A stretch of 64,000 nucleotides of DNA, from IMG/VR virus record IMGVR_UViG_3300024991_000250. One strand, written 5' to 3'. Both the position numbers and the translations under genes were made by a program. Positions 9,372 through 32,344 of the stretch are shown here, in pieces (positions within the stretch are counted from its first letter, which is position 1; the number at the start of each line of letters is the position of its first letter). This stretch comes from a virus. Below the pieces are notes generated by a model. The model saw only the letters and a program-made list of their open reading frames with translations, made no database searches and had not been told where the DNA came from.

Positions 9372-9376
9372 GGCCG

Positions 9377-10303: not shown

Positions 10304-10335
10304 GTCAATTCTCCTGAGATGAAGGGTTTGCCGGC

Positions 10336-10746: not shown

Positions 10747-10748
10747 CC

Positions 10749-11671: not shown

Positions 11672-12270
11672 ATCCAGTACACCCTAAGCGGCTGCAGCAG
11701 CATGTCGGTTGCAGCCTTCACCGCTTGGGTGGCCGCCTCGGACACCGTGTAAACCGTAGAGCCGACGCCCTCGACATCCTCCTGGCGAAGATAGAGGCTT
11801 TGCGCGCCCATGGCCTTGAGCTGCTGCACACCAATGATCACGGCCTGCTTTGCGTTCGCCGGAACATCTTCGGCTGCATAACCAGCCTTATAGGTGATCG
11901 TCACCGCATCGGCCGAGCATTCGGTTTGAGGCAGCGCAAAACCGGTTCCGAACTGGCACCGGTTTCCACCCGACAGGCGATAGTGGCTCTCATCCACCAC
12001 CTGCTCGACACCATCTGCGTCTCGATAGACGACGCTGACAATATCGATGACTGGCTCATAGGGCAGTCGAATGACGCGTGAGAACCGAGGCAGCGAATAC
12101 TCCAGCTCCTGCTCGCCCAGCGACCGCCCCAGCCATCCGGTCGGTCCATCAATCCCAGCCTGCACGGCGGCGATCAGCGCAATCACCCCTGCGTGGGATG
12201 CGCCTTGCTCGCTGGGGACATCGTCAGACGTGACAATAGGTGCGGGACCGGAGAGGCGACGAACGGCCAT
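11668..12270 (-). CDS. Head-tail connector, gp6-like (200 aa)
   Basis: WLGRSL..Q.L...LP..PV..IVSV.Y.D...ITYKAGY...VP...KQA motif. Confidence 0.8.
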   Translation of the reverse strand: MAVRRLSGPAPIVTSDDVPSEQGASHAGVIALIAAVQAGIDGPTGWLGRSLGEQELEYSLPRFSRVIRLPYEPVIDIVSVVYRDADGVEQVVDESHYRLSGGNRCQFGTGFALPQTECSADAVTITYKAGYAAEDVPANAKQAVIIGVQQLKAMGAQSLYLRQEDVEGVGSTVYTVSEAATQAVKAATDMLLQPLRVYWI

Positions 12271-12272
12271 AA

Positions 12273-12767
12273 TTAAGCAGCGGCCTTAAGCGCGGCCAAT
12301 ATGCCAGCCACATCGGTAGCGGAAGAGATGTCGATGGACTTTTTCGCAGCAAAAGCCTTGAGCTCGTCCACCGTCATGTCGTCAAGGTGCTTTTCCTTCA
12401 TATCGGCAGCTATCAGGGTAGCGATCACATCACCCTTGTTGCGGGCCGCAGAAACATCCACCCCTCGCTTGGCGGCCAGAGCGTCAAGCTGCGGGCGGGT
12501 AAGCGCACCAAGCTCCGCTGCAACATTGCTGTCCGCCGCCGAAATGTCGTCCCCCACGGGATCATCATTGGACGCATCAACTACAACCGCCACGCCACGC
12601 TGCAGCCAGCGATTCATGAAGGCCTGAAGCCATTCGTCGGTCGGATCCTGCTGCAGGCCGAGTTTTTCGCGGACATCTTCGCTGGCGAGAATGGAACCGG
12701 CCTCAAAGGTCGGGCCCTTGCCAGGCGCGGCTTCATAAATCTGGGTAGAAAGGAACCGGATGCGCAT
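12273..12767 (-). CDS. Hypothetical protein with two HeH/LEM-like helical repeats (164 aa)
   Basis: LTRPQLDALAAKRGVD and MTVDELKAFAAKKSID repeats. Confidence 0.6.
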   Translation of the reverse strand: MRIRFLSTQIYEAAPGKGPTFEAGSILASEDVREKLGLQQDPTDEWLQAFMNRWLQRGVAVVVDASNDDPVGDDISAADSNVAAELGALTRPQLDALAAKRGVDVSAARNKGDVIATLIAADMKEKHLDDMTVDELKAFAAKKSIDISSATDVAGILAALKAAA

Positions 12768-12789
12768 GGCGCCAACCTCAATGAATGAG

Positions 12790-12817
12790 AAAAGGGAAAG
12801 CGGGGCCGGAGCCCCGC
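12790..12817 (-). terminator. Rho-independent terminator after the capsid genes
   Basis: GCGGGGC-TCCG-GCCCCGC followed by TTTCCCTTTT on the minus strand. Confidence 0.75.
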
Positions 12818-12821
12818 CCTA

Positions 12822-13334
12822 TCAGTCGACGATCGCGCTTGCGGCAGCAGCGCCAGCGAACTTGGCGCCGCGCAGGATGTAGAGTGCGGCGATCAGCTGC
12901 GAGCCCGCAGAACCAGTATCAGGAACCTGGAGCTGAATGCAGTCGAAGCCATTGTTGACGTCGAGATCTTCAGCATCGAACTCGATCAGGAACAGCCCCT
13001 GAGCCTCAGCACTGGCCGCGTCGGTATAGGTATTGGCCGCAGCCTGCGTGACGGTCGTGAAAGTGCCGATACCAGTCTGGACACCAACCTTGGCGTCGAT
13101 GCGGGTAAAGTTCAGCGCCTTGGCATCGGTGCCCGACACATCCTTGGCCTGACGCACTGTGATAACCGGGTCATCGCCGGCCACACCGGCCGCCTTCATC
13201 AGCACGATGGTGCAGCGCTCGTAATTCTTGAGCGACACCCAATCGCCATTGTTGGCAGCAGCCTGAGAATCGACCGGGACGATTGCCGTCACGATCTGCG
13301 TATCCTCCGCGAGGAGGTTGTTGAGGTAACCCAT
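12822..13334 (-). CDS. Capsid-associated (decoration/cement-like) protein
   Basis: Immediately after the major capsid gene; beta-rich; GGAG upstream of ATG 13334. Confidence 0.55.
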   Translation of the reverse strand: MGYLNNLLAEDTQIVTAIVPVDSQAAANNGDWVSLKNYERCTIVLMKAAGVAGDDPVITVRQAKDVSGTDAKALNFTRIDAKVGVQTGIGTFTTVTQAAANTYTDAASAEAQGLFLIEFDAEDLDVNNGFDCIQLQVPDTGSAGSQLIAALYILRGAKFAGAAAASAIVD

Positions 13335-13409
13335 GATGGAAAACTCCAAGCGCCCATTAGGCGAGGGTGAAAGGGGAGACGCGCCGATTCATCCCGGCGC
13401 GCTGATCGC

Positions 13410-14894
13410 TTAGCGGGAAGCGAGGGTGATGTAAGGCGACTGGGCGTTCGCGCCGTCGCGCTGCGCGATAGCCGACGGCCACCACGGCTGGCCGGCAACC
13501 CGCATGGTGAAGCGAAACGCCACCATGTCCTGGTCGAACCAGAGATGGATCGACACATCGGACTTGATGCCGTTGGCATCGCGGCCGCCGCCGGTCTTGG
13601 TGACCGTCAGATACTGGGCGAGGTCAACCAGCATCACATCGCCAAGATCGCCGATGGTTTCCGCAACCTGATGCGGGATCACCGGACGGCCCCAGAGGGT
13701 GCCATACATGTTGCCGGAGACGCCGCCGGGAGGCAGATAGACCGGCTGGTTGGCCAGGCTCATCAGCGGCAGGGTAGCTTCGACGTCCGGGTGCATCAGC
13801 CACACCGCAGTGCGGCGCGAGGACACGGGCAGACGGCCCCACATCTTCGCCAGATTGGTCACATTGACGGTGTCGGCCGTCTGGCCGGCCTCGGCGGCAA
13901 CGGTCACCAGAGCGGGCGAATTGAGGAACCCGAGCGGCATGCCAACGCCAGTACCGCGCACGATCGCGTCGGATACCTTGAAGTCCATCTTTTCCGGAGC
14001 TTTCCGGTTCAGATAGGCGCCCATTGCAGGCGCATCTTCAAGCAGTTCTTCGGTGACCGGCACGAGAGTGGCCAGAGTGTGCAGCTTCAGCGTGGTTTCG
14101 CCGAGAGCAGGCTTGCTCTGCTGCTTCACACCAGCTTCGGCCGTCCAGTAGGACTGGATGCCGCCGGAGGTCTGCCAGGGAGTGGTCGAGTCTGTCGGCA
14201 GCGTGATCGTGTTCGAGCTCGACTGCAGACGATCGGTCATGGCCAGAAGGCTGTCTTCATTGAAGACCGGAGCCAAGATTTCGGTGCGGAAGTCGGCCGG
14301 AACTGCGAAACCGCCGTCGGCACCAGTGCCTTCATTGCCATAGGTCGATACCGCAGCATTACGCAGACGGGGGTCCATGTCGCCACCACGCTGGGACGCC
14401 TGGCGAACTGCATTGGCGAATTCGCCGAGGTGACGGAAGCCATTGGTGCCGCGAGCAGTAGCCGCCGGCTGAGCCGGAACAGGGCGCGCGGTGCCACGCG
14501 TAGCCGCATTGCTCGGCCGCTGCCCAGCGGAATTGTTCGGCTGGTCGACAGTGTCCGCATTGTCGTCGGGATCGGTCTGACGGCCACGCGGAGCAGTCAG
14601 CATCGCATTCTGGGTGTTGACGCGATTGCGCAGTTCGATCTGGCGCTCGAGGTCGTCGAACTCGTTGGTCAGACCTTCGATTTCGGTCTGCTCCTGGTTG
14701 GTCAGATCGCGGCTTTCGCTTTCCGCCCGGGCCAGAATAGCCTGGGACGATTCCATCAGCGCCTGCTGACGATCGCGATGCGCATCAATGGTCGCGTCGG
14801 TCGGGCCATCGGCAAACATGCCGAAGCCGTAGGGAAGTGCGCCAATGGCCAGCACGGCCAAGACGCTGGACGGCACCGTGAAGTGCTTACCCAT
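13410..14894 (-). CDS. HK97-fold major capsid protein (494 aa)
   Basis: Coiled delta domain, GGFAVP, LVPVTEELLED, D...FRF..RV.G motifs; SD aggag before ATG 14894. Confidence 0.95.
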   Translation of the reverse strand: MGKHFTVPSSVLAVLAIGALPYGFGMFADGPTDATIDAHRDRQQALMESSQAILARAESESRDLTNQEQTEIEGLTNEFDDLERQIELRNRVNTQNAMLTAPRGRQTDPDDNADTVDQPNNSAGQRPSNAATRGTARPVPAQPAATARGTNGFRHLGEFANAVRQASQRGGDMDPRLRNAAVSTYGNEGTGADGGFAVPADFRTEILAPVFNEDSLLAMTDRLQSSSNTITLPTDSTTPWQTSGGIQSYWTAEAGVKQQSKPALGETTLKLHTLATLVPVTEELLEDAPAMGAYLNRKAPEKMDFKVSDAIVRGTGVGMPLGFLNSPALVTVAAEAGQTADTVNVTNLAKMWGRLPVSSRRTAVWLMHPDVEATLPLMSLANQPVYLPPGGVSGNMYGTLWGRPVIPHQVAETIGDLGDVMLVDLAQYLTVTKTGGGRDANGIKSDVSIHLWFDQDMVAFRFTMRVAGQPWWPSAIAQRDGANAQSPYITLASR

Positions 14895-14993
14895 GTCTAT
14901 ACTCCTAAGAAAATGGCCCGCCGAAGCGAGCCGTTGGCCGTGGCCGGTTGGCCACCTCACTGCCGGCACCGTGCCAGCAGAATCTCTATGTGA

Positions 14994-15725
14994 TCAGGCG
15001 GCTTTGCCTGCCTGATGCTTGAGCTTCATCGTCGCGATCCGTGACCGCGCCGCATCCATGTTGGGCGTCCCGGCCAAAGCTGCCGGCGCCTTGTTGAACC
15101 GATGCTTTGCCGGGTCGAAACGCGCTGCGAGCCGCATATTGTCGGCCACATCAGTCGCAAAACCATTGTCAACGGCTTCCTGCGCAGTGAACCAGGTCTC
15201 GACGTCCATCCAGTTCTTGATCTCAGCCTCGGTCTTGCCGGTGCGGGCGATGTAGACGTCACGGATGCTCTGTGTGGTGCGATCGAGCAGCCCAGCCATG
15301 GTCCGCATGTCCTCGCTGTCGCCCATGGCGAAGCCCCAGGCATTGTGGATCATCAGGAAGCCGGATTCGCTGATGTGGATTTCCTCACCGGCCATGGCGA
15401 TTACCGACGCAATCGAAGCGGCAAGGCCGTCGATATGCACGATGACCTTTGCCTTGTGGTCGACGAGAAGCCGGTAAATCGTCAGGCCATCAAAGACATC
15501 ACCGCCAGGGCTGTTGATGCGCAGGCGGATCGTATCGACGTTCCCGGCCGCCTTCAGATCATCAGCAAACTGCTTCGCCGTGACGCCGCCGAACCATGAA
15601 TCTCCGACATCGCCGTAGAGCATGATTTCGGCTTCTTTGCCCTTGGCCTTGATACTGAAACCGCTTGGCACTTTCGTGCCAGCGTCATTCAGAACGAGGC
15701 TGAGCGCGGTTGAGGACGATGCCAT
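14994..15725 (-). CDS. ClpP-type (S14) prohead protease
   Basis: INSPGGDVF, AASIAS (Ser), MIHN (His), ETWFTAQEAVDNGFA; GGAG before ATG 15725. Confidence 0.92.
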   Translation of the reverse strand: MASSSTALSLVLNDAGTKVPSGFSIKAKGKEAEIMLYGDVGDSWFGGVTAKQFADDLKAAGNVDTIRLRINSPGGDVFDGLTIYRLLVDHKAKVIVHIDGLAASIASVIAMAGEEIHISESGFLMIHNAWGFAMGDSEDMRTMAGLLDRTTQSIRDVYIARTGKTEAEIKNWMDVETWFTAQEAVDNGFATDVADNMRLAARFDPAKHRFNKAPAALAGTPNMDAARSRIATMKLKHQAGKAA

Positions 15726-16986
15726 GCGGAACTCCATTGGCTTGCGGCTGCGGGCTTGTGTCGGAGTGGTCGGTCGGCTGGTCTGTGCTGGTGGTGGCTG
15801 GGTCTTCGCCACGGATGAGACGCCCCAACACCTGAACCTGCTGGGAAACGAGGCTGACATCGCCGTCGGGGCCAATGCCGTTCATGTCCTCGAGCGCCAG
15901 AATGCGGTTCAGCGGGACGCCCAGATCGAGCAAGCCCTTGTAGAATTTCATGCGGCTGTCATTGTCGCCGCGCATCAGCGCCTGCACCGAAACCTTCGTG
16001 TACAGTCCCTGACGATTGGCGCCGAAAAGCTTGTAATCGGCTTCCTGCTCGAAAACTCTGATCCAAGGCGTGATGCTGTCGACGACGACTTCGATCGACT
16101 GGTGTTCGATGTTCGAGAAGGTCGAGCGCAACAGGTGCATGACTTTGTGTGGGGGCACCCCGAACCAGCGGCAGATCTCTTCGACCTGATGCTGGCGAGT
16201 TTCGATGAACTGAGACTTGTTCGCCTCCAGCGTCAGCGGCTTGAAGTCCATGTCAGCATCGAGAATAACCGTCCGGTCGCCCTTGGGTCCACTATATAGC
16301 CGCTTGAAGCTGGCCTTGAGCTCTTCGAGCGCCGGAACTGACAGTGCCTTCTTCGTCGTGACTACCCCACTGGGGTTCATTCCCTGGCCAAAGAACGTTG
16401 AGCCGAAAACTTCCGTCGCCTTTGCCCAGCCAATCGACTGTGCAGCATACGAGATCACGCTGTAGCCAACAGGGCCATCACCGAGACCGCGGACATGAAA
16501 CATGTCTTCGGCGTTCAGGATGGTCGACCCTGCCCGGCCGGTGACCTCATACTGAAGCGCCCCATCTTCTGCGCGAAGCACCGTCACCCGATCGGGATGG
16601 ATCGGCCAAAGCGCATACGGCATGTTTCGATTGTCGCGCTCGATTTCTGCATACGCGTTGCCGCGCAACAGGATATTCATCAGCATCGACTGGCGCCAAG
16701 AGAACGCGCTCATATCTGGGCACGGCCGGGTGTTCAGCAGCCGGTCAACCTGATGGCCAGAAGAGACGACCGCATTGCCGTTCGCGTCCTTGGTCATAAC
16801 GTGCCAAGGCAGTTGCGCTACCGTCCGGGTTAGGTACTGAACGCAAGCCCATACCGTCGCATTCTTCAGGGCATTGTCGGCATCGACATAGATGCCTGCA
16901 TCCGTCTTGCCCAGCGAGTAGACGCGGGTTTCCGAGGGGCGATCCCAGCCTGTGATGCGGTTGAGGACACGACCGAACCAATTCAT
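15685..16986 (-). CDS. HK97-family portal protein (433 aa)
   Basis: [37 protein letters not shown] motifs. Confidence 0.95.
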
Positions 16987-18698
16987 TGCGCCTCCTCAGC
17001 AGCTCTTTGCAAGGCAAGCTGCTCGTAAACAGACACGCCGCCACCCATTGCTTCCGGGTTCCGGCTCATCAACTGGGCCGCATTAAAAACCGCAATCAGC
17101 GGATCGATCTTGGCCTTGCCGGCCGCCTGCTTGGTGATCAGCACCGCATTACCGCGCTGCTCGGTCTTGGCATTGCCGACAGCCCAGGCCATCAGCTTCT
17201 GACCGCAATGCCAGAACGTCCCATCCTTGAGCTTCCGCTCGACGCCCCATACCGCTCCGGAGAGCTTATAGCCCTGGGAGACCGCCGCCATCTGCTCGTC
17301 GCCGATGCCCCGACCCGATAGCTCGTCGACCATGGCGGTCACGCCCATCGGGTCCAAACCAACGGCGCCCTTTTCCGGCAGCAGGCCGGCATCCTTCAGC
17401 CGCTCGACGATGTCGGCGACCTCTTGGATATCCTGCGTCGGGTGCTGACAAATGGTCAGTTCCCCGCACGCCTCGAAATCGCGAAGCAAAGTCACGATTT
17501 CCTTGCGCTGTTTGAGAGCATCGGTCTGTGCCCAGGCATGGCCCCAATGCAGCCATTCACGGGTGTTCCTGTCCCGGCCGATCACACCCAGGCCCAGCAG
17601 GTCGTCGAGGCCGCCCCCATCAATACCGACGACAGCGACATCCGATCGCTCGATGATCTCATCGAGGTCCAACCCGGACTGTTCTGCAGCCTCCCAATAG
17701 GCCGCACCGGCCCAGCGATCCCGCCGCAGCTTCAGCCCGATCTGGACATTGAGGTGCTTGGCTAGAAATGTCTGCTTGTCTTCTCCTACCTCCCCTTCGC
17801 CGCGCAAAACCTTGCGTAGCTTGTCCTCGAGCCATGATCGCCGAACCGAGCGACCAATATTGGGGTTGGTGACATAGAAGTTTTCGGGGTCGAGATAGGC
17901 TTCGCTGTCGAGCATGGCCTGCGGCCACTCGAACAGCATGCCAAAGGACCGCTTGTCCGCGATGACGCCATCACGAACGTCGCGAAAATATTCCAGCCGA
18001 TCCTTGAACACCCCGGATGGTGCCTCGTCGCTATGGGTCGAAAGGTAGATCACGAACCCTTCCGACTTTGACACCAGCCCACCGGTGGCCTCTTCCAGCA
18101 TCGCTGCAGCGCCGGCCATTTTGCCGAATAGCCAAAGCTCGTCGATCAGCACAAATCCCGCCTTCTTGCCGGCGACTGTGTTCGTGTCCGCCGCGACAAC
18201 TTTCAACTCAGCCCGCGTCACCAGGTGCTTGATCGTTTTCTGGTGGTCGACAGGCTTCAGGATCTTGGACAGTTCAGCATCTGCCCGGATCATTGCAGCC
18301 GCGGGCTTATAGCTATTGTTCGCGACTTCCAGCGTCGGCGCCAAGATCAGGAGCTCCGCATCGAACCGCCAGTTTCGGATCAGCGCCGTCACCATGATGC
18401 CGGCGGCGATGGTAGATTTCGCGTTCTTCTTGCTGATCAGGAGGAAGAACTCGGCGATATGACGGGTCATCTCCGCATGCTCATAAGCGCCGAAGATCGC
18501 CCGCACGAAATCGAAAACGAACGGCTCGCATGCCTCCCCGAAGGTCGGCATACCGGGCACGTCCACGATACGCAGCGACTTGAACACGGCAAGCGCAGCG
18601 TCTGCCTCGTCGGGAAACAGCGGCTCAAACGGCACCAGCGATTGCCGCTCGACGATCCGGGTCTCCCAGTCCGGGCAAGCCGTCGACCAGTCCAGCAT
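16983..18698 (-). CDS. terL: Terminase large subunit (571 aa)
   Basis: [10 protein letters not shown] Walker A, VLIDELW Walker [13 protein letters not shown] nuclease motif, KIDP. Confidence 0.96.
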
Positions 18699-20718: not shown

Positions 20719-22563
20719 TCAGTACCCCGGGTCGTCCGGGTCGCGCTGCGGCGGGGTGTTGGCGTAGCCGGTGCCGGCCAGGCCTTCTTTCAGCTTGATG
20801 TCGGTGTAATAGTAGAAATTGGAACGCTTCTTCTGGAAGCCCAGATCGTTGAGCCGGTCGCCAAAGCTGCGATTGCTGGCCGGCTTGAGCTGGTTGACCT
20901 CGCACCAGCGCAGATAAGCCTTGTAGAGATCGCCGGCCTGCACCTTCATATTGAGCGCAGGATCGACCTTCTCGATGCCGACATCGGCAAACACACCGAC
21001 ATTGTCGCGCTCCTCCCGGTGCTCCTGGGCGAACTGCTTGGCCTCGGACGGCGTATAGTAGTTCAGCCCGTTGCTGAGATACATCACGGCGCCCTCGAGC
21101 AGCCAGTTGAGCACCCCTGCCCGCTCCGCATCGAGCCGCGCCGCCAATTCTGCCGGGTCCATCCGCTCCTCGGTCGGGATATAGACGCCCCAGAGCACGA
21201 ACAGGAAGCGCCGCCAGATGCCTTCATCCTGCCCCGTGATCGCCGGCTTGTTATTGCCGGAGAGCATCGGGGTAAACTTTGGCATGAACTCGAAGAAGTC
21301 CTTGTTGAGGAAACGTGCAAGGATCTTGGTGCCGCCGGTCAGCGCCTTGATCAGCTCCTCCTTGAGCGGCGTGTTTTTCGGCAGCTCTTCGATGGTCACC
21401 AGGCGCGCATTGTGCAGGCGCGCAATGTCGGGATTGGCCTGCTGGCCAGCGCGCTGCCCGTCGCCGGTGATCGATTCCGGCGAGGCGATCTGCCGGTAGC
21501 TGCCGCCGAGGCGGCCGATCAGCTCGAAAAAGGCCGACTTGCCGTTCGCACCCTTGCCATAGTGATAAAACATGACCTGCGCCGCATTGCCGCCGAACAG
21601 CAGCGCCACCGCCGTCGACACCTGAATGAAGGTGCGCCAGTGCTGTTCCGGCTGCACCTTGGCGAGAAAGGTGTCGTGGAAGAATGGCGCCTTGGCGCCC
21701 GGGTCATAGGACACATCGGCCATCTTGGTGATGAGATCGTCGCGATCATGCGGCTCGAAACTATAGCCCCCGATCATGCGCGTGCCGCCCTCCGGCTGGT
21801 CCGGGTCGAGTTCCTTCCAGAAGCGGATCGTGCCGTTCGCGACATTGAACTTCATGTCGTCGGCATCGAGCCGGTCGATCGGCAGGGATTTGAGCGATTG
21901 CGCCTGCTCCAGCATCGCCTTGGTGCGGCCGGCATTGCCCGAGGTTACCGCCCAGGCGATCCGCGACGAGCGGCGCTTGCCCAGGGCCGCCATGACTTCG
22001 GTCGCGGTCTTGATGATCCGCTCCTCGGCCGCGCTGAGATCGTCCTTCTTGCGCAACAGCTCGTCGGCGCGGGCGCAGATCTTCTTCTGCTTTTCGCTGG
22101 CCTCCAGCTCGACGGCCTCGAGCTTGATCTTGTCGACGATCATCTGCGCCAAAAGCCGCACATCGAGGTCTGCCTCGTCCCGCTGCCAATGGGTGCCGCG
22201 CCAATAGAGCCAGCCGAGGCCGGTCACATAGCGCAGGTTTTCGCCGAACCAGGCTACCAGGCGCCGGCCATTGTCGCGATCGTTCTGGTCCAGCCCGGCG
22301 CACCAGCGCGACACGATGCGAGACGCTTCGTCCAGCCCGTCATTGCTGCCGAAATCGTCGGCATCCATGAAATCGGCATCGCTCGGACCAGGGTCGTCGG
22401 CATCAGCCGGCGGCGGACCTTCTTTGGCCTTGGCCTTACGCGCCGGCTTATCGGCCGATGCCGCGCCCTTGCCACCCTCGATAACACCGAGTTTGACAGT
22501 GCGTTTCTTGGCAGCCGCCTTCTTGACGGCATCGGACTTGTCGTCTTCGGTATCGTCAGACAT
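20719..22563 (-). CDS. P4/D5-family SF3 helicase (primase-associated ATPase, 614 aa)
   Basis: D5_N motif NDRDNGRRL, Walker A YGKGANGKS, IKALTGG, NNKP, DEGIWRR, C-terminal winged helix. Confidence 0.93.
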   Translation of the reverse strand: MSDDTEDDKSDAVKKAAAKKRTVKLGVIEGGKGAASADKPARKAKAKEGPPPADADDPGPSDADFMDADDFGSNDGLDEASRIVSRWCAGLDQNDRDNGRRLVAWFGENLRYVTGLGWLYWRGTHWQRDEADLDVRLLAQMIVDKIKLEAVELEASEKQKKICARADELLRKKDDLSAAEERIIKTATEVMAALGKRRSSRIAWAVTSGNAGRTKAMLEQAQSLKSLPIDRLDADDMKFNVANGTIRFWKELDPDQPEGGTRMIGGYSFEPHDRDDLITKMADVSYDPGAKAPFFHDTFLAKVQPEQHWRTFIQVSTAVALLFGGNAAQVMFYHYGKGANGKSAFFELIGRLGGSYRQIASPESITGDGQRAGQQANPDIARLHNARLVTIEELPKNTPLKEELIKALTGGTKILARFLNKDFFEFMPKFTPMLSGNNKPAITGQDEGIWRRFLFVLWGVYIPTEERMDPAELAARLDAERAGVLNWLLEGAVMYLSNGLNYYTPSEAKQFAQEHREERDNVGVFADVGIEKVDPALNMKVQAGDLYKAYLRWCEVNQLKPASNRSFGDRLNDLGFQKKRSNFYYYTDIKLKEGLAGTGYANTPPQRDPDDPGY

Positions 22564-23320
22564 GGAGGCTACATTGCATTGGCGTGAACACTGGAAGGCT
22601 ATCGCAATCTTTGCCGCTTTTACTTGGTTGATCGCCTATATCGTGGTGTGGGTTCACCGATCTAGTTGCGACAGCTTGCAGCAAGCCGCATGTGCAGCCC
22701 GAGCCCTGATGACGGCGGGCGCAGACGTGGTCACCTTTCAATGGGTGTGGGACAATCAGACCCTGGCGGCGGGCATGTTCACTTCCGGGGCCGCAGGGAT
22801 CGCCCTCGTGGTGCTCTTCATTCAGCGCCAGTGGCAAATCGATAGCGAAAAGAAAGCCAAATACGCAGAAGCTCTCAATGCTCTGAATTGGACCAAGATC
22901 CTGCTGCGCTCGATTGCAGATACCGCGGGGCGAAAGGAACGGCAGGCGACAATCGGCGAAATCGACAAGCTTGATGACCATCTGGTCGCACTTGCGACTG
23001 TATCTCCCATGCTCGCAGAGACCGTTAGGGATATGATCCAACGCCTCAAAGCTTACGCAAAAAATCGCGAAGACAGCTTTGCCCTTCCATCTCTCGACGA
23101 CGATTTTGGCTTTGAAGTCGACGGCCTGGAATGGGCATTCGTGATGGCCACCTGTTTCACAGCATTTTTCCGCGAACCGGAAAGACTGCTCGATAGCGAT
23201 GCCAACTTCATATTCAAGCGACAGAAATTCGCGGCAGTAGCTGGCGATCTCACCAACTACCCCAATCTCGCCTTTTGGGAATGGAGGCATGTGCGCGACT
23301 TTTTCGAAATCTGACCTCAC
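22556..23320 (-). CDS. Bridge ORF D (254 aa), antisense to a nested membrane-protein gene
   Basis: GTG overlaps the primase TGA (GTGA); its TGA overlaps the helicase start (ATGTCTGA); the peptide itself is not recognisable. Confidence 0.45.
   Translation of the reverse strand: MRSDFEKVAHMPPFPKGEIGVVGEIASYCREFLSLEYEVGIAIEQSFRFAEKCCETGGHHECPFQAVDFKAKIVVERWKGKAVFAIFCVSFEALDHIPNGLCEHGRYSRKCDQMVIKLVDFADCRLPFLSPRGICNRAQQDLGPIQSIESFCVFGFLFAIDLPLALNEEHHEGDPCGPGSEHARRQGLIVPHPLKGDHVCARRHQGSGCTCGLLQAVATRSVNPHHDIGDQPSKSGKDCDSLPVFTPMQCSLHV
22574..23314 (+). CDS. Nested antisense membrane protein D (two TM segments, ~246 aa)
   Basis: GGAGG 5 nt before TTG 22574 (alternative ATG 22562); hydrophobic segments AIAIFAAFTWLIAYIVVWV and LAAGMFTSGAAGIALVVLFI; AT-richer than flanks. 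Confidence 0.75.
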   Translation: MHWREHWKAIAIFAAFTWLIAYIVVWVHRSSCDSLQQAACAARALMTAGADVVTFQWVWDNQTLAAGMFTSGAAGIALVVLFIQRQWQIDSEKKAKYAEALNALNWTKILLRSIADTAGRKERQATIGEIDKLDDHLVALATVSPMLAETVRDMIQRLKAYAKNREDSFALPSLDDDFGFEVDGLEWAFVMATCFTAFFREPERLLDSDANFIFKRQKFAAVAGDLTNYPNLAFWEWRHVRDFFEI

Positions 23321-24495
23321 AAAATCACCCGTACCAAATCATTGAGGTCTTTGCCGTCGCCAATCGGCTCGACGAATGAGCAGTCCAGCACCGACAGCGC
23401 CGGGTTCTCCTGCAGGCGGCGTTCACGCCAGGCCTGGGCGCGCAGCAGGCCGCGCGTCACCTTTTCCACAGTGCGCTTGTCCGGCTCGTCGCTGTCGCAG
23501 AGATAGACCAGCTCTTCGGCCCAGTCGGGCGGCAAGAAACAGTCCCAATCCGTGAGGTCCGGCAGGCCATGCTGCTGGCGCCCTTCGGCATCGCGGGCGG
23601 CCTTGCCGGCCATATTGCCGAGATCGACCCCGGCCCAATAGGCCGTATCAGCCTCGAAATTGTGGGCCAGCGCGGTCAGCGTGGTTTCGATGCCTTCACC
23701 CATGACGATGCGGCGCGGTCGATCCGGGGTGTAGAGCCTGATCGCTCCGCCCTTCTTGGCCCCGCGCACCTTCTTGGAGGGAATGGCTTTGCCGGTGTCG
23801 GTGTTGTTGCCCGGCACGGCCTTGCCTTTCGGCTGGTCGAGGTCGAGCCAGGTAGCATGGCTGGCGCCGAACCTGTCGTCAGGCTGCTGCACCGCGGCGA
23901 TCATGGCCGGGCCGGTCCATGCCGTTTGCCAGGCCCCGCCCATATGCTCGACCAGCTTCAAATGCGGATGCTCCCAGAGCTTGATCGCATCGATCGGCAC
24001 ATGCCGGCCGATCAGGTCAAAGCCGATGCCGCGCAAGGCGAGATAGCGGCCGAGAGTGTCGCGGCCATGATTGGCCCGGGCCTCGGAGAATATCCGCCAG
24101 CCATCCCGTCGCGCCTCTTCCCGGTAGCGTGCCGCCTCGTCGGCCCGGCGCTGCTCATCCCTGGCATTCTGTTCGGCAATCTGCCGCGCCCGGTCAGGAT
24201 CGAGCGGAGCCGAGGCCTTGCGGCCGGTGACGATCTCGCAGGCCTCGACGAAGCCGACGCTTTCCGTCGCCTCGACCAGCTTGATCACGCCCGACCCGCT
24301 GATGCCGCAACCCCGGCACAAAAAGGTGTTCTTCTTGGTGTGGATGGCAAAGCGATCGGTGCCACCACAGACCGGGCAGGGTCCGGCCCGGTCGATCCCC
24401 GGCGCCAGCTTCCAGCGTCTGCGGATCGCCCAGCTTTCACAGCTGGTCTGCATGGCGTCGTCGCGCAGCGCGATCAGTTCGGGCGATAGGGTCAT
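23317..24495 (-). CDS. Primase: zinc-binding domain plus TOPRIM
   Basis: GPCPVCGGTDRF...CRGC zinc finger; MGEGIET; YLCDSD. Confidence 0.88.
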   Translation of the reverse strand: MTLSPELIALRDDAMQTSCESWAIRRRWKLAPGIDRAGPCPVCGGTDRFAIHTKKNTFLCRGCGISGSGVIKLVEATESVGFVEACEIVTGRKASAPLDPDRARQIAEQNARDEQRRADEAARYREEARRDGWRIFSEARANHGRDTLGRYLALRGIGFDLIGRHVPIDAIKLWEHPHLKLVEHMGGAWQTAWTGPAMIAAVQQPDDRFGASHATWLDLDQPKGKAVPGNNTDTGKAIPSKKVRGAKKGGAIRLYTPDRPRRIVMGEGIETTLTALAHNFEADTAYWAGVDLGNMAGKAARDAEGRQQHGLPDLTDWDCFLPPDWAEELVYLCDSDEPDKRTVEKVTRGLLRAQAWRERRLQENPALSVLDCSFVEPIGDGKDLNDLVRVIL

Positions 24496-24674
24496 CACCG
24501 CCCTCCCCACTTCGACAGACCGGCCATGGCCGCCTTGATATCGGCCATGCAGGCAGAGGCGCCGCGCCCTTCCTCATAGTCGCGGATGATCTTTGCCACG
24601 GCGGCCAGTGCGCGCTTGCGCGATGCCCCCCGGCGCCCGGCCCGCTCCGCCTCGATGCGACCGATATCGCTCAC
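24495..24674 (-). CDS. Hypothetical protein (59 aa, MSDIGRIEAERAG...)
   Basis: GTGA and TGATG overlaps with its neighbours. Confidence 0.55.
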   Translation of the reverse strand: MSDIGRIEAERAGRRGASRKRALAAVAKIIRDYEEGRGASACMADIKAAMAGLSKWGGR

Positions 24675-25385: not shown

Positions 25386-28021
25386 GCCACTTCTCCCTTC
25401 TCTTCCTGATGTTCGATTTCCATCACGCCGAACAAATCCGGCATGGCCAGCTCGTCTTCCATGGCCTTCACATAGGCGCAGCCATCCACGAAATAGCCGG
25501 GGTTGAGCTCGACGGCCCGGCCGCGCCGCTTCAGTTTCAGCGCGCGATAGGGCACGCTCATGAGCCCCCCGAACGGATCGAAAACTGTCTCGCCCGGCTC
25601 GGAATATTGCGCGATGCAGCGGTCGATGATGTCGAACTGCAGCGGGCAGAGATGCATTTCGCGGCCAGCCTGGGCCTGCAGCGTGTTCATCGACAGCATG
25701 CGGGCCACGTCGGACCACACATCGTCATGCTTGGAATGGGGCGGCAGCAGCATGAAGGTCGAGGGCAGCGAACCGTGCTGCTCGAGCTCTTCGGCAATGG
25801 TCACATGATGTTCGAAGTCATAGACCGCGTTGAGCTGGTAGGCCTTCCAGAGCTTGTAGATGACATTGGCATCGAGGCTGCGCAGCTCGTCGCCGGTCAG
25901 CAGGCGATTGCCCGACACCGGCATATAGCCATGGGCATCGAGCTGCCAGCGTGCGCGGCTATAGCCGTCATTATCGGTCCAGTGCCCTGCCTTCCATTCG
26001 CGCTTGCCCTTGGCCACCGGCTTGTCGGCATAGCCATTGGAATTGTCGGTCGGGGGCTTGCGGAAGATCAGCAGATATTCGGGCAGGCCATTGCCCATGC
26101 GGCTGCCATCCTTGCACTGCTCTGTCCAGCCCAACCGATAGGTCTGGTTGTTCTCCCGCACCACGTCGGTGGTGATGGTCTTGCGACTGAGGAAGGCAAA
26201 GCCATGCTTGGTGAAGGCGCGGATGCAGTCGTCGGAGAAAGGATAGACCGATTGAAAGCCCAGCCCGGTCATGCCACCCGGCACGATGCGATCTTTCACA
26301 TGGATGGCCGCCACCCGCCCCGGCGCCAGCACCCGCAGCAGCTGCGGGATCAGGTAATCCATCTGGGCCCAGAAGTGGCCATTGTCGTCGGTATGGCCGA
26401 AATCGGCATAGTTGGGGCTATATTCGTACTGGGTCGAGAACGGGATCGAGGTGACGATCAGATCGACCGCGTTTTCCGCCATGCCGGCGCATTCGGGCAC
26501 GCAGTCGTTGTTGACCAGCACATAGCTATCCCCGCGAACCTCCACCCGCTCCACGCCCATCGCCCTGGTCAGGCTCTGCGCCATGGCCGCCGAGGTCAGC
26601 CCATATTCCTTGATGATTGAGGTCATGATCGCCACCTGCTCGTTATGGCGGCGCCATTTCGCTTCCAGGCTGTCGCGCACGGGACGTTCGGCCTCGGTAT
26701 AGATGAGGTCGACGCGCACGGTTTGCGTCTGCAGGAATCGGTAGCACCGATGAATGGCTTGGATCAGGTCGTTAAATTTGAACCCGATCCCGAGAAAGAT
26801 TTCCCAGGCGCAATGCCGTTGGAAATTGCTGCCAGAGCCGAGCATGCTGGGCTTGCCGGCCAGCTCGGCCCGGCGCCCATCGGCAAAGTCGGCCAACAGG
26901 GTTTCGCGGGCGTCGAGGTCCTGGCTGCCATAGACCGTGGCAATGCCGGGAATGGCCGCCTCGATGGCGTGCCGCTCCGCCTCGAGATCATGCCAGATGA
27001 TCCGGTGCGCCTTCGGGTCGATGGCGCGCAACTCCAGCATCTTGGCGATGCGGATGGAAAGGCTGTCGCGCTTTTCGCGTGCCGCATCGCTGAGGCTGGC
27101 CGCCGCATTGCGCAAGAGGCGCCCCTGCCCGCTTTTCTCCACCCCGGCCGATGCATGATCGGCCGGCAATTCGTGCCAATGCACCTCGAGCGGCGGCAGG
27201 TCATAGCCTGCGTCGGAAAAACCGAGATCGCTGGGTTTCTGCACGAACAGGCCCCAGCTGGCCACCCACAGCCAGAACTCTTCCTGCTTGTGCGGGTGGA
27301 TGGTGAGGCTGTCGGCCTTCTCGCTATTGCGCTTGAAGAACCGCGTCTTGGCCTGGCCGACATCCATGACTTCGAGGAAGGCCGAATAGGCCAGGAGCTC
27401 GATATATTCGTTCGGGCTCGGCGTGGCCGTGGCGACGAATTTGAACCGCACCCCGTCGAACAGCCGCATGAATTCGCGGAAGGTCTTGGTCCCGCCAAAA
27501 CCGCGCAATACCGAAGCCTCGTCGAGGCTGGTGGCGGTAAAACCGCGCGGATCGAGCTTGCCGTCACGCACCGTCTCGTAATTGGCGATATAGAGCTGGC
27601 CATCGGCCGTGCCTTCGATGCCCCGGATAAAGCGCAGGTTGGGCACCCGCTCCGGCCGCCCATCCGCCCAGGCGCGCAATTCTGCCCGCTGCGCATCGCT
27701 CACCGCCGGGTGCTCGCCTGTCGCCAGCGCCCGCGCATCGGCCAAAAATTCGCGGCGCACACCCAAGGGCGCCACCACCAGGCCCTTGCCGCCAAAACGG
27801 GCGACGACAATGCGCAGGATTTCCAGCTGCACAAAGGTCTTGCCCAGCCCGAAGGCCGCGAACAGCGCCCGCCGCCCGCCCAGGCAGGCCCATTTGACCA
27901 TGGCCTTCTGGTGCGGGCTCAGCAGCGGATTGATCTCATCGTTCTCGACGATGAAACCCGAAACCGGCGCCCTGGCCACCTTGGCGGCAAGAAAATCTTC
28001 GTAGCGGAGGGGCATATTCAT
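25382..28021 (-). CDS. SNF2-like helicase fused to an amino (N4/N6) DNA methyltransferase (879 aa)
   Basis: GLGKT Walker A, LDEAS, TATPSPN, QAIHRCYRF helicase motifs; TSIPF (motif IV variant) and FDPFGG (motif I). Confidence 0.88.
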   Translation of the reverse strand: MNMPLRYEDFLAAKVARAPVSGFIVENDEINPLLSPHQKAMVKWACLGGRRALFAAFGLGKTFVQLEILRIVVARFGGKGLVVAPLGVRREFLADARALATGEHPAVSDAQRAELRAWADGRPERVPNLRFIRGIEGTADGQLYIANYETVRDGKLDPRGFTATSLDEASVLRGFGGTKTFREFMRLFDGVRFKFVATATPSPNEYIELLAYSAFLEVMDVGQAKTRFFKRNSEKADSLTIHPHKQEEFWLWVASWGLFVQKPSDLGFSDAGYDLPPLEVHWHELPADHASAGVEKSGQGRLLRNAAASLSDAAREKRDSLSIRIAKMLELRAIDPKAHRIIWHDLEAERHAIEAAIPGIATVYGSQDLDARETLLADFADGRRAELAGKPSMLGSGSNFQRHCAWEIFLGIGFKFNDLIQAIHRCYRFLQTQTVRVDLIYTEAERPVRDSLEAKWRRHNEQVAIMTSIIKEYGLTSAAMAQSLTRAMGVERVEVRGDSYVLVNNDCVPECAGMAENAVDLIVTSIPFSTQYEYSPNYADFGHTDDNGHFWAQMDYLIPQLLRVLAPGRVAAIHVKDRIVPGGMTGLGFQSVYPFSDDCIRAFTKHGFAFLSRKTITTDVVRENNQTYRLGWTEQCKDGSRMGNGLPEYLLIFRKPPTDNSNGYADKPVAKGKREWKAGHWTDNDGYSRARWQLDAHGYMPVSGNRLLTGDELRSLDANVIYKLWKAYQLNAVYDFEHHVTIAEELEQHGSLPSTFMLLPPHSKHDDVWSDVARMLSMNTLQAQAGREMHLCPLQFDIIDRCIAQYSEPGETVFDPFGGLMSVPYRALKLKRRGRAVELNPGYFVDGCAYVKAMEDELAMPDLFGVMEIEHQEEKGEVA

Positions 28022-28902
28022 GCTGCCGTCTCCATTGACGAAGACGCCGTATCGCAGCGAGTGTGTGCAATCAGCTGGGGGGTGCTGCTTTGAAGCCGAG
28101 GATTTTTGGCCTGCGAATAGAGCGCAGCGCTCTCTACCTTATGTTCTTCGCCTGCGGAATTCTTGGAGGCATAGCCATTATTGCTTTTGCTCCGGGCGCG
28201 CCTTGGAGCACGAACATTGAACCGACTGGCGCCACAACCGCCGAGGCTCTGGACCTGGCCACCCAACGCAGCATGGCTGCCTCTGCCTGGTGGATGGTCG
28301 TTGCAAGTGCCGCTGCGGCAGCCGTCGGACTGGCAACATTGGTGCTTGTCGCCAATACGCTCAATGAGGCCAGGCGAAGCGCAGACGCCGCAAGAGACGC
28401 GGTTAAGGCCACGCTCACCGTGGGCAAAAAACAAACCCGAGCCTATCTGGTGGTCGAGAATGCTAACCTGATCGCGACTGACCTCTTGCCTAGCCTCACA
28501 TTCACAGTCGATGTTCGAAATACAGGTCAGTCGCCCGCGCAAAAGGTGCGAGCCCGTGGGACGCTTAAGATAGTGAAAACCAGCACAAATGCCGAAGGCG
28601 AAGTCGCAGAAACGATAAGACTTTCGATGGAAGGCAGCATGCAAATGCCAGACATTTCGGCCGCACAATCTATGCCATTTTCCTTCGGCGAATTGTACCT
28701 CAACGACGATCCTGGTCTGCATGAGCGACTGGACGATATTTTTCTCACGGCGAAGGCAAACATCTGGATCGATTACGAAGATGTTTTTGGTGACGAAGAT
28801 ACCGTAGAAGTCCGGTTTTCCGGAGGCATCCGGACACCTGAACACACCCGCCAGGGCGTCAAACTCAAACCCGTTGTGTAGCTCTCCCTGTGCAGCACTC
28901 AT
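28018..28902 (-). CDS. Bridge ORF C (294 aa, MSAAQGEL...METAA), antisense to a nested membrane-protein gene
   Basis: ATGA overlaps at both ends; carries the GGAG SD of the methyltransferase. Confidence 0.45.
   Translation of the reverse strand: MSAAQGELHNGFEFDALAGVFRCPDASGKPDFYGIFVTKNIFVIDPDVCLRREKNIVQSLMQTRIVVEVQFAEGKWHRLCGRNVWHLHAAFHRKSYRFCDFAFGICAGFHYLKRPTGSHLLRGRLTCISNIDCECEARQEVSRDQVSILDHQIGSGLFFAHGERGLNRVSCGVCASPGLIERIGDKHQCCQSDGCRSGTCNDHPPGRGSHAALGGQVQSLGGCGASRFNVRAPRRARSKSNNGYASKNSAGEEHKVESAALYSQAKNPRLQSSTPQLIAHTRCDTASSSMETAA
28090..28881 (+). CDS. Nested antisense membrane protein C (~263 aa)
   Basis: GGGGG before TTG 28090 (alternative GTG 28063); two hydrophobic segments followed by an Ig-like 'RAYLVV...VRNTGQSPA' domain. 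Confidence 0.8.
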   Translation: MKPRIFGLRIERSALYLMFFACGILGGIAIIAFAPGAPWSTNIEPTGATTAEALDLATQRSMAASAWWMVVASAAAAAVGLATLVLVANTLNEARRSADAARDAVKATLTVGKKQTRAYLVVENANLIATDLLPSLTFTVDVRNTGQSPAQKVRARGTLKIVKTSTNAEGEVAETIRLSMEGSMQMPDISAAQSMPFSFGELYLNDDPGLHERLDDIFLTAKANIWIDYEDVFGDEDTVEVRFSGGIRTPEHTRQGVKLKPVV

Positions 28903-31596: not shown

Positions 31597-31757
31597 GCTG
31601 GCCGCCGCACGATCTGGCCCTTGCGGGCCCTGGCGCCATGGCCGACGCCACCCAGGCGCACCAGCTCGCGATAGCCGACACCCTGCCGGCCCATATGGCG
31701 CAGCGCATCGGCCAGGGCGGCCCGCTCGGCTTTGCTCATATTGCGCGGGGCGGTCAT
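31593..31757 (-). CDS. Hypothetical protein (54 aa, MTAPRNMSKAERAALADALRHM...)
   Basis: Not in the ORF track; SD GGGGGAG; ATGA overlaps at both ends. Confidence 0.6.
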   Translation of the reverse strand: MTAPRNMSKAERAALADALRHMGRQGVGYRELVRLGGVGHGARARKGQIVRRPA

Positions 31758-32344
31758 TCGACTCTCCCCCGCAAAACCGCTCTGATGCGGGCGAAGAACC
31801 CACGGAGAATCACATGCACGCTGCGAACAGTGACACCCAGACCGAACTGGTTGCCGAACAGACGGCGACCATGATCCTGGCCGACGCCATTATCGACCTG
31901 GCAACCGGCCTCGCCGAAAACACCGATGACCCCCGCATGGTCGATGCCGTGGTGGGCGCCGTTCATGACGCGATTGAGCGGGCGAGCGCTTCCTTCGTTT
32001 TTCCCGGCCAGGCGCCTCTGGAGCGCGCCGATGAAGAACGAGCCCTCGTTATGGCCCGGAACCGCGCCCGGGTCATTGCTGAGATGATCAAGCAGGCGTG
32101 CGAAAGTCGACTGACTGCGAAGATGGGTCCGAAGCACTGATGGTCGGCGATCGAGACCATTCGCCCGGCGCCATTGCAGATAGGCATCATGCAGAGCCGC
32201 GGCCTCCGCATGCATCGACAGCATGGGACGGAACACTGGCGCATGATCGAACGCACCGGGATGCAGAAATCGAGCCCGGCGCTTCGCTGCGATACGCCCA
32301 TAGCTGCCAGCCAACCGCGCCAGGAACATGCGGAACGCGCTCAT
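31754..32344 (-). CDS. Bridge ORF A (196 aa)
   Basis: ATG overlaps the cro TGA; TGA overlaps the next ATG; the N-terminal third may be a genuine small phage protein. Confidence 0.5.
   Translation of the reverse strand: MSAFRMFLARLAGSYGRIAAKRRARFLHPGAFDHAPVFRPMLSMHAEAAALHDAYLQWRRANGLDRRPSVLRTHLRSQSTFARLLDHLSNDPGAVPGHNEGSFFIGALQRRLAGKNEGSARPLNRVMNGAHHGIDHAGVIGVFGEAGCQVDNGVGQDHGRRLFGNQFGLGVTVRSVHVILRGFFARIRAVLRGRVE
31814..32140 (+). CDS. Nested antisense helical protein A (108 aa)
   Basis: GGAGA 5 nt before ATG 31814; amphipathic helical sequence MILADAIIDLATGLAEN...VVGAVHDAIERA. Confidence 0.65.
   Translation: MHAANSDTQTELVAEQTATMILADAIIDLATGLAENTDDPRMVDAVVGAVHDAIERASASFVFPGQAPLERADEERALVMARNRARVIAEMIKQACESRLTAKMGPKH

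What the first reader, a model, noticed from the sequence alone, without database searches (positions are those of the whole stretch)
22556..23320. Membrane-protein gene wedged between primase and helicase with zero spacing
Seen: a plus-strand two-TM ORF fills the whole primase-helicase interval. Its ATG (22562) shares the palindrome CATG with the helicase start on the other strand, and its stop is 2 nt from the primase stop. No recognisable SD precedes the helicase ATG, so the 254-codon bridge ending in ATGTCTGA is the obvious route for its translation. The nested gene's promoter must lie within the helicase gene (a TTGACG sits at 22523-22528). Inference: superinfection-exclusion or defence cargo locked in by an essential replication gene.
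Basis: partly seen in the sequence, partly recalled or inferred. Interest (0 to 1): 0.65.

Follow-up and report, generated by a model that had tools for sequence, protein, structure and literature searches.

The report
Backward membrane gene bridged by stop-free ORF
A temperate Devosia-type phage carries a foreign membrane-protein gene inserted backwards exactly between its primase and helicase genes, and the opposite strand of that gene has been kept free of stop codons, apparently so that ribosomes can read across it from the primase to the helicase, which has no ribosome-binding site of its own.

Summary
A plus-strand gene (22574/22562..23314) fills the primase-helicase interval. A 254-codon minus-strand ORF (23320..22556) starts in the primase stop (GTGA) and ends over the helicase ATG (ATGTCTGA).

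- **Insertion.** Three Devosia prophage relatives have primase and helicase overlapping by 4 nt with nothing between. The window therefore holds a ~750-bp, lower-GC insertion at a coupled gene junction.
- **The plus gene is real.** It has 12 homologues (25-38% identity), AF2 pLDDT 82 with their alignment, two TM helices and a conserved Cys pair. It matches no known family or fold.
- **The minus frame is not a conserved protein, yet it is selected to stay open.** In six family members the gene's own codon usage predicts 6-14 codon-aligned antisense stops and none occurs. Two family members not covered by such an ORF have 5 and 8. The junction overlaps recur in at least three unrelated contexts.
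- **Ribosome-binding sites.** The helicase ATG has no SD (+0.8 kcal/mol). The bridge GTG keeps the ancestral helicase initiation site (-7.5).

Best reading: a backward cargo gene covered by a translational relay ORF. The cargo's function (exclusion or defence) is untested. Earlier notes of this scan describe the same rule in other prophages. I found no printed description for dsDNA phages.

The parts
23317..24510 (-). Primase gene (Zn-ribbon + DUF7146 + Toprim). The probable start is ATG 24495, with a GGGGAGGG SD. The stop TGA is at 23319..23317.
   Evidence: 80% identical to the L016 primase.
23317..23320 (-). GTGA overlap: the bridge-ORF start GTG (23320..23318) lies on the primase stop TGA. 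This is the position and SD context of the helicase start in relatives without the insert.
   Evidence: L004 reads GTGACC at the same place. SD duplex -7.5 against -6.8 and -6.4 in L004 and L003.
22556..23320 (-). Bridge (relay) ORF on the operon strand: 254 codons, codon-aligned antisense to the cargo gene. Its peptide is Cys/His/Pro-rich and not conserved.
   Evidence: It is not in the protein collection, although the look-up used the V-initial form as printed, not the M-initial form a record would carry. No Pfam or PHROG hit.
22574..23314 (+). Cargo gene: 246 aa from TTG 22574, or 250 aa from the alternative in-frame ATG 22562. TM1 about residues 13-31, a loop with a conserved CxxxxxxxC, TM2 about 67-88, then a helical C-terminal domain of about 160 aa predicted to be cytoplasmic. 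GC 0.54 against 0.63-0.66 in the flanks.
22564..22568 (+). GGAGG Shine-Dalgarno of the cargo gene, 5 nt before TTG 22574. Its complement CCTCC fills the place where a helicase SD would be.
   Evidence: L016 has GGGGGG at the same offset.
22556..22563 (-). ATGTCTGA: the helicase ATG (22563..22561) lies 5 nt upstream of, and overlaps, the bridge-ORF stop TGA (22558..22556). This is a termination-reinitiation junction.
   Evidence: Identical in L016.
20719..22563 (-). D5-like (P4-alpha-type) helicase gene with no SD. Its first ~50 residues are L016-like and the rest is L002/L003/L004-like (mosaic).

Best explanation
SHOWN. A ~750-bp cassette of lower GC carries one gene for a two-TM inner-membrane protein of a previously unnamed family. 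It sits backwards, exactly at the stop/start overlap that couples primase to helicase in related phages. The insertion cut the helicase ORF off from its initiation site. That site (an SD-like GGGTGA plus GTG on the primase stop) now opens a 254-codon frame that is codon-aligned antisense to the cargo gene. The cargo gene contains none of the three codons (TTA, CTA, TCA) that would read as stops on the operon strand.

INFERRED. Ribosomes leaving the primase reinitiate at this GTG and translate a meaningless polypeptide across the cassette. They terminate at the TGA in ATGTCTGA and reinitiate 5 nt back at the helicase ATG, which has no SD. The space for one is taken by the complement of the cargo's own SD. 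Continuous translation would also keep the early transcript covered by ribosomes and protect it from Rho-type polarity.

INFERRED. The cargo gene points the same way as the repressor side of the phage and has a strong SD of its own. It is therefore probably expressed from the prophage. Its most likely role is a membrane-level exclusion or abortive-infection factor, which is unproven.

The slot behaves as a hypervariable allele site. The window and L016 share the flanks (70-85% DNA identity) and both junctions, but carry family members that are near random at the DNA level.
For: 1. **Insertion.** In L002, L003 and L004 (helicase 70-75% identical) the primase stop and helicase start overlap by 4 nt with nothing between. 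GC drops to 0.51-0.59 in the interval.

2. **The cargo is a real gene.**
- A full HMMER scan found 12 homologues, with E down to 2.5e-36.
- The alignment keeps W30, R33, C36, C44, W61 and R89.
- AF2 pLDDT rises from 42 to 82 when the alignment is supplied.
- Codon-position identity is 0.38/0.43/0.31, with the third position most variable.
- Gene callers always chose this strand.

3. **The minus frame is not a protein family.** Pairwise BLASTP among minus-frame peptides mostly gives E > 0.01; the exception is L017/window at 1e-4 over 29 residues. The plus frame gives 1e-5 to 1e-26 for most pairs, with a few weaker. The minus peptides carry about 2-6% Cys.

4. **Selection against stops.**
- Expected codon-aligned antisense stops are 7.9, 14.1, 8.4, 6.0, 8.8 and 7.2 in window, L016, L017, L020, L021 and L026. 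None is observed in any of them.
- Controls L018 and L019 have 5 and 8 against 8.8 and 10.0 expected.
- The null overpredicts by only about 1.5-fold on 147 long ORFs.

5. **Exact junctions recur.**
- L016: GTGA / ATGTCTGA.
- L020: ATGA on the DUF4326 stop and ATGA on the DnaB start.
- L021: TTGA / ATGA.
- L025: ATGA at the downstream gene.
- L017: ATGCGTAA.

6. **SD pattern** in both window and L016: none at the helicase ATG, good at the bridge start, strong at the cargo start.

7. **A second real cargo gene in the same window** (28063..28881 +; homologues at 48-52%) has an ATGA/ATGA bridge with 7.8 stops expected and none observed.

8. **Precedent.** Translation of P4 eta, coupled to the upstream gene, prevents termination (PMC10111431, summarising Forti et al. 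1999).
Against: - There are no expression data of any kind. Translation of the bridge, dependence of the helicase on it, and transcription of the cargo in lysogens are all inferred.
- In L020, L021, L017 and L025 the downstream gene has a moderate SD (-4.7 to -7.8). Delivering ribosomes therefore cannot be the only reason for an open frame.
- L018 sits between two operon-strand genes but has 5 antisense stops, so the rule is not absolute. A strong AGGAGG lies just before the downstream gene there.
- L017's bridge start is not coupled to the upstream stop (95-nt gap).
- Window and L016 share ancestry at this locus and are not fully independent.
- No promoter or terminator for the cargo gene was found.
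- The cargo has no similarity to any known exclusion or defence protein.
Confidence: 0.68

Rival explanations
1. Shadow ORF. The open minus frame is a by-product of GC-rich codon usage, since TTA, CTA and TCA are rare codons, and it has no function.
For: The codon-aligned antisense frame is the one known to give long shadow ORFs in GC-rich genomes. The composition null overpredicts stops by about 1.5-fold in ordinary ORFs of these loci, and 17 of 147 long ORFs have none.
Against: The cargo genes have GC3 of only 0.52-0.72 and use A-ending codons freely elsewhere (16-30% at four-fold sites), yet six of eight members have zero. Calibrated P(0) runs from about 6e-3 down to 1e-5 per gene. None of 23 ORFs with GC3 < 0.6 had zero. 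Family members L018 and L019 carry 5 and 8. A shadow ORF would not start and stop precisely in the neighbours' stop and start codons in several unrelated contexts.
Confidence: 0.04
2. True antiparallel overlapping gene pair. The 254-aa minus-strand product is itself a functional protein of the replication operon.
For: It has an SD-like site and classic operon junctions at both ends. RcapNL has two small co-directional genes in the same interval.
Against: Minus-frame peptides of window, L016, L017, L020 and L021 show no meaningful similarity, and amino-acid identity over aligned codons is 0.13 against 0.20 for the plus frame. The window peptide has 16 Cys and 14 His in 254 residues. There is no Pfam or PHROG hit, and this exact sequence as printed (V-initial) is absent from about 15 billion collected proteins. 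Relatives with a working primase and helicase lack the interval altogether.
Confidence: 0.07
3. The bridge is translated and selected, but mainly to prevent Rho-dependent polarity or transcription-translation uncoupling across 750 nt. The helicase ATG is initiated independently (SD-independent or by standby binding).
For: In four other contexts the downstream gene has its own moderate SD, yet the frame is still kept open. P4 eta translation acts by preventing termination.
Against: In window and L016 the helicase ATG has the poorest SD of the operon, and its stop/start overlap with the bridge is conserved. The two mechanisms are not exclusive.
Confidence: 0.2
4. The minus ORF is the only real gene, and the plus 'membrane protein' is a mis-called shadow.
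For: Both ORFs fill the interval, and GC3 hardly discriminates between them (0.61 against 0.58).
Against: The plus-frame family is conserved with TM pattern and Cys pair, AF2 pLDDT is 82 with a 13-row alignment, the third codon position is the most variable, and there is a strong SD.
Confidence: 0.01

Closest known systems
Phage-plasmid P4 eta/kil reading frame (Forti et al. 1999, J Bacteriol 181:5225, as summarised in PMC10111431)
   Same: An ORF translationally coupled to the upstream gene, whose translation rather than its product lets the operon read through to downstream replication genes.
   Different: P4 eta runs over immunity RNA elements and encodes a Bro-type protein with nested Kil. 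Here the frame runs antisense across a complete, unrelated protein-coding gene, has no conserved product, and shows no homology to Eta (no Pfam hit).
Ambigrammatic narnaviruses (reverse ORF; PMC8316113, PMC8155312)
   Same: A codon-aligned reverse frame kept open by avoiding UUA, CUA and UCA. [quoted passage not shown]
   Different: Those are RNA viruses of eukaryotes in which the reverse ORF covers the whole genome segment. Here a dsDNA temperate phage has a local cassette whose reverse frame is tied to both neighbours by stop/start overlaps.
Shadow ORFs and stop-codon avoidance opposite genes in GC-rich prokaryotes (bioRxiv 10.1101/724807; PMC8850804)
   Same: Long antiparallel ORFs in the codon-aligned frame, with statistical avoidance of stops and no purifying selection on the antisense product.
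   Different: Those are discussed as by-products or as candidate overlapping genes. Here the avoidance depends on context (nested against non-nested family members) and the ORF ends are locked to neighbouring genes.
Phage morons and prophage superinfection-exclusion membrane proteins (P22 SieA, T4 Imm and HK97 gp15, recalled from general knowledge)
   Same: A single accessory gene of deviant GC, absent from close relatives, encoding a small inner-membrane protein in a temperate phage.
   Different: No sequence or fold similarity was found. No promoter or terminator pair was found. The orientation is backwards inside an essential, coupled replication gene pair.

Membership tests
Translationally coupled operon ORF (termination-reinitiation) | Start codon overlaps the stop codon of the upstream gene | tested here: met
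   GTGA at 23320..23317. The same holds in L016, L020 (ATGA) and L021 (TTGA).
Translationally coupled operon ORF (termination-reinitiation) | Stop codon overlaps or abuts the start codon of the downstream gene, which lacks its own SD | tested here: met
   ATGTCTGA. Helicase SD duplex +0.8 kcal/mol.
Translationally coupled operon ORF (termination-reinitiation) | Downstream expression depends on upstream translation | not testable with these tools
   Needs reporter fusions or ribosome profiling.
Shadow ORF explained by codon bias | Number of antisense stops agrees with the composition of the sense gene | tested here: not met
   7.9 expected, 0 observed. Five further members also have 0 against 6-14 expected. 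Controls fit the null.
Antiparallel overlapping protein-coding gene | Antisense product conserved under purifying selection | tested here: not met
   Minus-frame peptides are unrelated, with BLASTP E mostly > 0.01. The plus-frame third codon position is the most variable.
Ambigrammatic coding (narnavirus type) | Codon-aligned reverse frame lacking TTA, CTA and TCA | tested here: met
   Both frames are in the same register. Leu and Ser codon tables show zero TTA, CTA and TCA.
Ambigrammatic coding (narnavirus type) | RNA virus genome with a reverse ORF spanning the replicase segment | tested here: not met
   This is a 46.8-kb dsDNA phage, and the feature is local.
Moron | Absent from close relatives and of deviant base composition | tested here: met
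Moron | Own promoter and terminator | tested here: inconclusive
   The consensus scan found none. Alphaproteobacterial promoters may escape it.
Known exclusion or defence proteins (PHROGs, PADLOC; retron Ec48 2TM effector) | Sequence or fold homology | tested here: inconclusive
   No PHROG or PADLOC hit at E < 0.01. ESM Atlas lists the Ec48 effector cluster at only 0.83, which is chance level. PF28197 is not in the local library. Fold searches gave only generic helical bundles, Z <= 8.7.
Self-splicing intron, IS or homing-endonuclease insertion | Ribozyme core, terminal inverted repeats or a nuclease ORF | tested here: not met
   No Rfam match at E <= 1. No terminal inverted repeats. No nuclease domain.

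The most novel reading that the evidence does not exclude
Backward-pointing accessory genes in tightly coupled phage operons obey a general design rule. They must be 'ambigrammatic', meaning free of TTA, CTA and TCA in register, so that a meaningless relay ORF can carry ribosomes from the upstream stop codon to the downstream start codon. This membrane-protein family has adapted to that life style and is exchanged as deeply diverged alleles at fixed junctions. One of those junctions holds an essential helicase hostage to the cassette's integrity.
Probability: 0.55. Interest if true: 0.85.

Novelty: new variant of a known kind. Interest (0 to 1): 0.72.

Why it matters
If ribosome relay across backward genes is real, three things follow.
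- It explains how temperate phages can place lysogeny-expressed cargo inside essential, translationally coupled lytic operons without polar effects.
- It adds a selectable constraint on the synonymous codons of such cargo. That constraint is usable as a computational signature to find nested genes and to decide which strand codes.
- It warns annotators that a perfectly operon-like ORF can be a non-protein 'bridge'.

The finding also gives a clean experimental system: a single synonymous change in the cargo should switch off an essential helicase. Separately, it defines a new two-TM protein family of prophages whose function can be tested.

Tried and rejected
**Searches that found nothing**
- Pfam, PHROGs, PADLOC and a PDB profile search for the cargo protein and its 12 homologues gave nothing significant.
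- Foldseek against PDB and BFVD gave nothing at E <= 0.001.
- VIA-align wide gave only generic four-helix bundles, Z <= 8.7.
- The ESM Atlas lists only hypothetical clusters near the protein. The retron Ec48 effector scores 0.83, a lead I could not test because PF28197 is not in the local library.
- tblastn against 50,697 phage records found no match.
- IMG/VR scans with four family members found no match.
- The metagenome scan gave only two short contigs.

- No whole genome is held for the window.

**Ideas rejected**
- Intron, IS or homing element: no Rfam match and no terminal repeats.
- An 8-bp repeat GCCTCCAT near both ends and a possible TGA target duplication were considered. They are not distinguishable from chance.
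- TTGACG as a promoter element was rejected.
- The weak Devosiaceae and order-level hits L011-L015 and L022-L024 are at best remote single-TM relatives or unrelated. They were not counted as family, and all have antisense stops.
Full report
**What the window is.** Bases 1-17242 repeat exactly at 46759-64000, so the window is a wrapped 46,758-bp phage-type genome with GC 0.62. The cargo protein's 90% cluster also occurs on contigs of about 1.03 Mb. The closest relatives of the replication genes are prophages in Devosia chromosomes. The element is therefore a temperate Devosia-type phage.

**Check of the observation.**
- The helicase (D5_N, DUF5906, Pox_D5; PHROG 'DNA primase' positions 291-836 of 855) is 22563..20719 on the minus strand.
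- The primase (Zn-ribbon, DUF7146, Toprim) is 24510/24495..23317.
- The interval between them holds a plus ORF (ATG 22562 to TGA 23314) and a minus ORF of 254 codons (GTG 23320 to TGA 22556).
- The minus ORF starts with GTGA on the primase stop and ends with ATGTCTGA over the helicase ATG.
- Both ORFs are in the same codon register. Stops in the minus frame can therefore arise only from TTA, CTA or TCA codons of the plus gene.

**It is an insertion.**
- In three Devosia prophages with helicases 70-75% identical (L002, L003, L004), the primase stop and the helicase start overlap by 4 nt (ATGA or GTGA) and nothing lies between them.
- In L004 the junction reads CGGGTGAGCCTGTGACCGATACG. In the window the same CGGGTGATTTTGTGA is followed by about 750 bp of GC 0.51-0.59 (flanks 0.63-0.69), and then by CCATGTCTGACGATACC.
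- The bridge's GTG is thus the former helicase start codon, with its SD-like GGGTGA. The helicase now begins at a new ATG at the far end of the insert.
- Rhodobacter phage RcapNL has two small co-directional genes at this place, so the junction is a variable slot.
- No intron or ribozyme, terminal inverted repeats or nuclease were found.

**Which strand codes.**
- GC3 does not decide between the strands (0.61 against 0.58). Homology does.
- The word-indexed search found only the protein itself. A full HMMER scan of 1.84 billion representatives found 12 homologues of 223-273 aa, with E from 2.5e-36 to 9e-4 and 25-38% identity.
- Their alignment keeps two hydrophobic segments, W30, R33, C36, C44, W61-V62, R89 and a C-terminal FF..RL..DG motif.
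- AlphaFold2 goes from pLDDT 42 with the single sequence to 82 with this 13-row alignment.
- Across eight genomic members, nucleotide identity by plus-frame codon position is 0.38/0.43/0.31, the pattern of plus-strand coding. That alignment was built on the plus frame.
- The minus-frame peptides are unrelated to each other by BLASTP (E mostly > 0.01) and are about 2-6% Cys. The plus-frame proteins match at 1e-5 to 1e-26 for most pairs.
- Gene callers in public data always called the plus strand. The minus peptide, looked up as printed (V-initial), is not in the 15-billion-protein collection.
- The start is probably TTG 22574. GGAGG lies 5 nt upstream (duplex -9.3 kcal/mol against -3.1 for ATG 22562). 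In L016 the homologous ATG, preceded by GGGGGG, is at the same offset and matches the family N-terminus MKF...

**The bridge frame is under selection.**
- A Devosiaceae genome (G082, locus L016) has the same architecture: primase, backward family member, helicase. It has the same GTGAGGTCAG and CCATGTCTGACGATAC junctions and a 250-codon open minus frame.
- The two cargo proteins share only about 22% identity by direct BLASTP (36% in a tblastn hit that includes out-of-gene sequence). DNA identity falls from 70-85% in the flanks to 25-55% exactly between about 22560 and 23320.
- I took as null each gene's own use of A at four-fold sites and at A/G two-fold sites, excluding Leu and Ser codons. 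Expected codon-aligned antisense stops against observed:

| Locus | Expected | Observed |
|---|---|---|
| window | 7.9 | 0 |
| L016 | 14.1 | 0 |
| L017 | 8.4 | 0 |
| L020 | 6.0 | 0 |
| L021 | 8.8 | 0 |
| L026 | 7.2 | 0 |
| L018 (control) | 8.8 | 5 |
| L019 (control) | 10.0 | 8 |

- On 147 long ORFs of the same loci the null overpredicts by a factor of about 1.5 (observed/expected 0.66). None of 23 ORFs with GC3 < 0.6 has zero.
- After that calibration the Poisson P(0) values are about 6e-3, 1e-5, 1e-3, 2.5e-2 and 5e-3 for the first five. These are my arithmetic.
- L019, with 8 stops, is co-directional with its upstream neighbour (a PD-(D/E)XK nuclease gene) and convergent with the other neighbour. 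It needs no bridge.
- L018 lies between two operon-strand genes but has stops. An AGGAGG precedes the downstream region there.

**The junction pattern recurs in unrelated contexts.**
- L020: the bridge starts ATGA on the stop of a DUF4326 gene and ends ATGA on the start of a DnaB-type helicase gene.
- L021: TTGA on a 117-aa gene, ATGA at the next ORF.
- L025/L026 (soil metagenome): the bridge ends ATGA on a Cys-rich gene.
- L017: it ends ATGCGTAA on a small ORF, but its start is not coupled.
- In two contexts the gene immediately downstream is a replicative helicase.

**SD pattern.** With a CACCUCCUU anti-SD, the helicase ATG scores +0.8 kcal/mol, the poorest of 16 operon genes (random positions have median -3.0). 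The bridge GTG scores -7.5, like the helicase starts of L003 and L004 (-6.4, -6.8). L016 repeats this pattern at -2.1, -6.8 and -9.3 for helicase, bridge and cargo. The complement of the cargo's SD (CCTCC) directly precedes the helicase ATG.

**Mosaicism.** The window's primase and the first ~50 helicase residues are L016-like (79-85%). The rest of the helicase is L002-L004-like (74-100% in most 50-residue blocks). The cassette travels with its flanks by homologous recombination, and the breakpoint lies in the disordered helicase N-terminus.

**The cargo protein.**
- TM1 is about residues 13-31 and TM2 about 67-88.
- The loop carries the conserved Cys pair, which fits a periplasmic disulfide.
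- K/R-rich sequence follows TM2, so the ~160-aa helical C-terminal domain is predicted to be cytoplasmic. This is inferred from the positive-inside rule.
- No family, defence model or fold match was found.
- The ESM Atlas lists only hypothetical Pseudomonadota clusters near it. A retron Ec48 effector cluster scores a chance-level 0.83.
- The function is therefore open. I favour a lysogen-expressed exclusion or abortive-infection role at about 40%. The grounds are position, orientation (the same as the repressor side), topology and allelic hypervariability.

**Generality in this genome.**
- A second backward gene, 28063..28881 (+), is real, with homologues at 48-52%. It lies under a minus ORF that starts ATGA and ends ATGA on the next gene, with 7.8 stops expected and 0 observed.
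I did not test them further.

**Comparison with what is known.**
[quoted passage not shown] 1999).
- Ambigrammatic narnaviruses keep a codon-aligned reverse ORF open. [quoted passage not shown]
- Stop avoidance opposite prokaryotic genes has been quantified without a mechanism (bioRxiv 10.1101/724807).
- Four literature searches found no description of relay ORFs across backward phage genes.
- Earlier AI notes of this scan report the same rule in Stenotrophomonas-type and Janthinobacterium-type prophages and in this genome. I used them as leads only.

**Verdict.** The insertion, the reality of the cargo gene and selection on the stop-free bridge frame are well supported by comparative sequence evidence. 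Translation relay is the best mechanism but is inferred. The cargo's function is unknown.

Noticed in passing
window 28018-28902 (-) and 28063-28881 (+): A second backward cargo gene (two TM helices plus a beta-rich domain; homologues at 48-52% identity) lies under an operon-strand ORF. That ORF starts ATGA on the upstream gene and ends ATGA on the 879-aa SNF2/methylase-type gene. 7.8 antisense stops expected, 0 observed.
   Followed up: partly
window 31754-32344 (-) / 31814-32140 (+), and 43157-43498 (-) / 43218-43481 (+): Two more backward ORFs (a 108-aa helical protein next to cro, and an 87-aa lipoprotein) are each covered by an operon-strand ORF whose ends overlap both neighbours. The second pair is out of codon register, and the minus frame has only its terminal stop.
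   Followed up: partly
window 20719-22563 against L016 and L002-L004: The helicase is a mosaic. Residues 1-50 are L016-like (79%) and residues from about 100 onward are L002-4-like (up to 100% per block). The recombination breakpoint lies in the acidic, disordered N-terminal linker.
   Followed up: yes
window 1-17242 = 46759-64000: The window wraps a 46,758-bp circular or permuted genome, so every feature below 17.2 kb appears twice.
   Followed up: yes
L020 (G186) 8381-11759: A different prophage replication module reads Dam methylase, DUF4326, backward family member, then DnaB helicase. The cassette again sits immediately upstream of the replicative helicase.
   Followed up: partly
L012, L013, L014, L015, L022, L023: Weak profile hits share a (Y/F)QTL(I/V)AG transmembrane motif followed by a helical domain. 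They look like a wider single-TM superfamily. All have ordinary numbers of antisense stops.
   Followed up: no
protein cluster of P0005: One public variant (P0008) lacks four residues (GADV) in the periplasmic loop. This 12-nt deletion preserves both reading frames.
   Followed up: no
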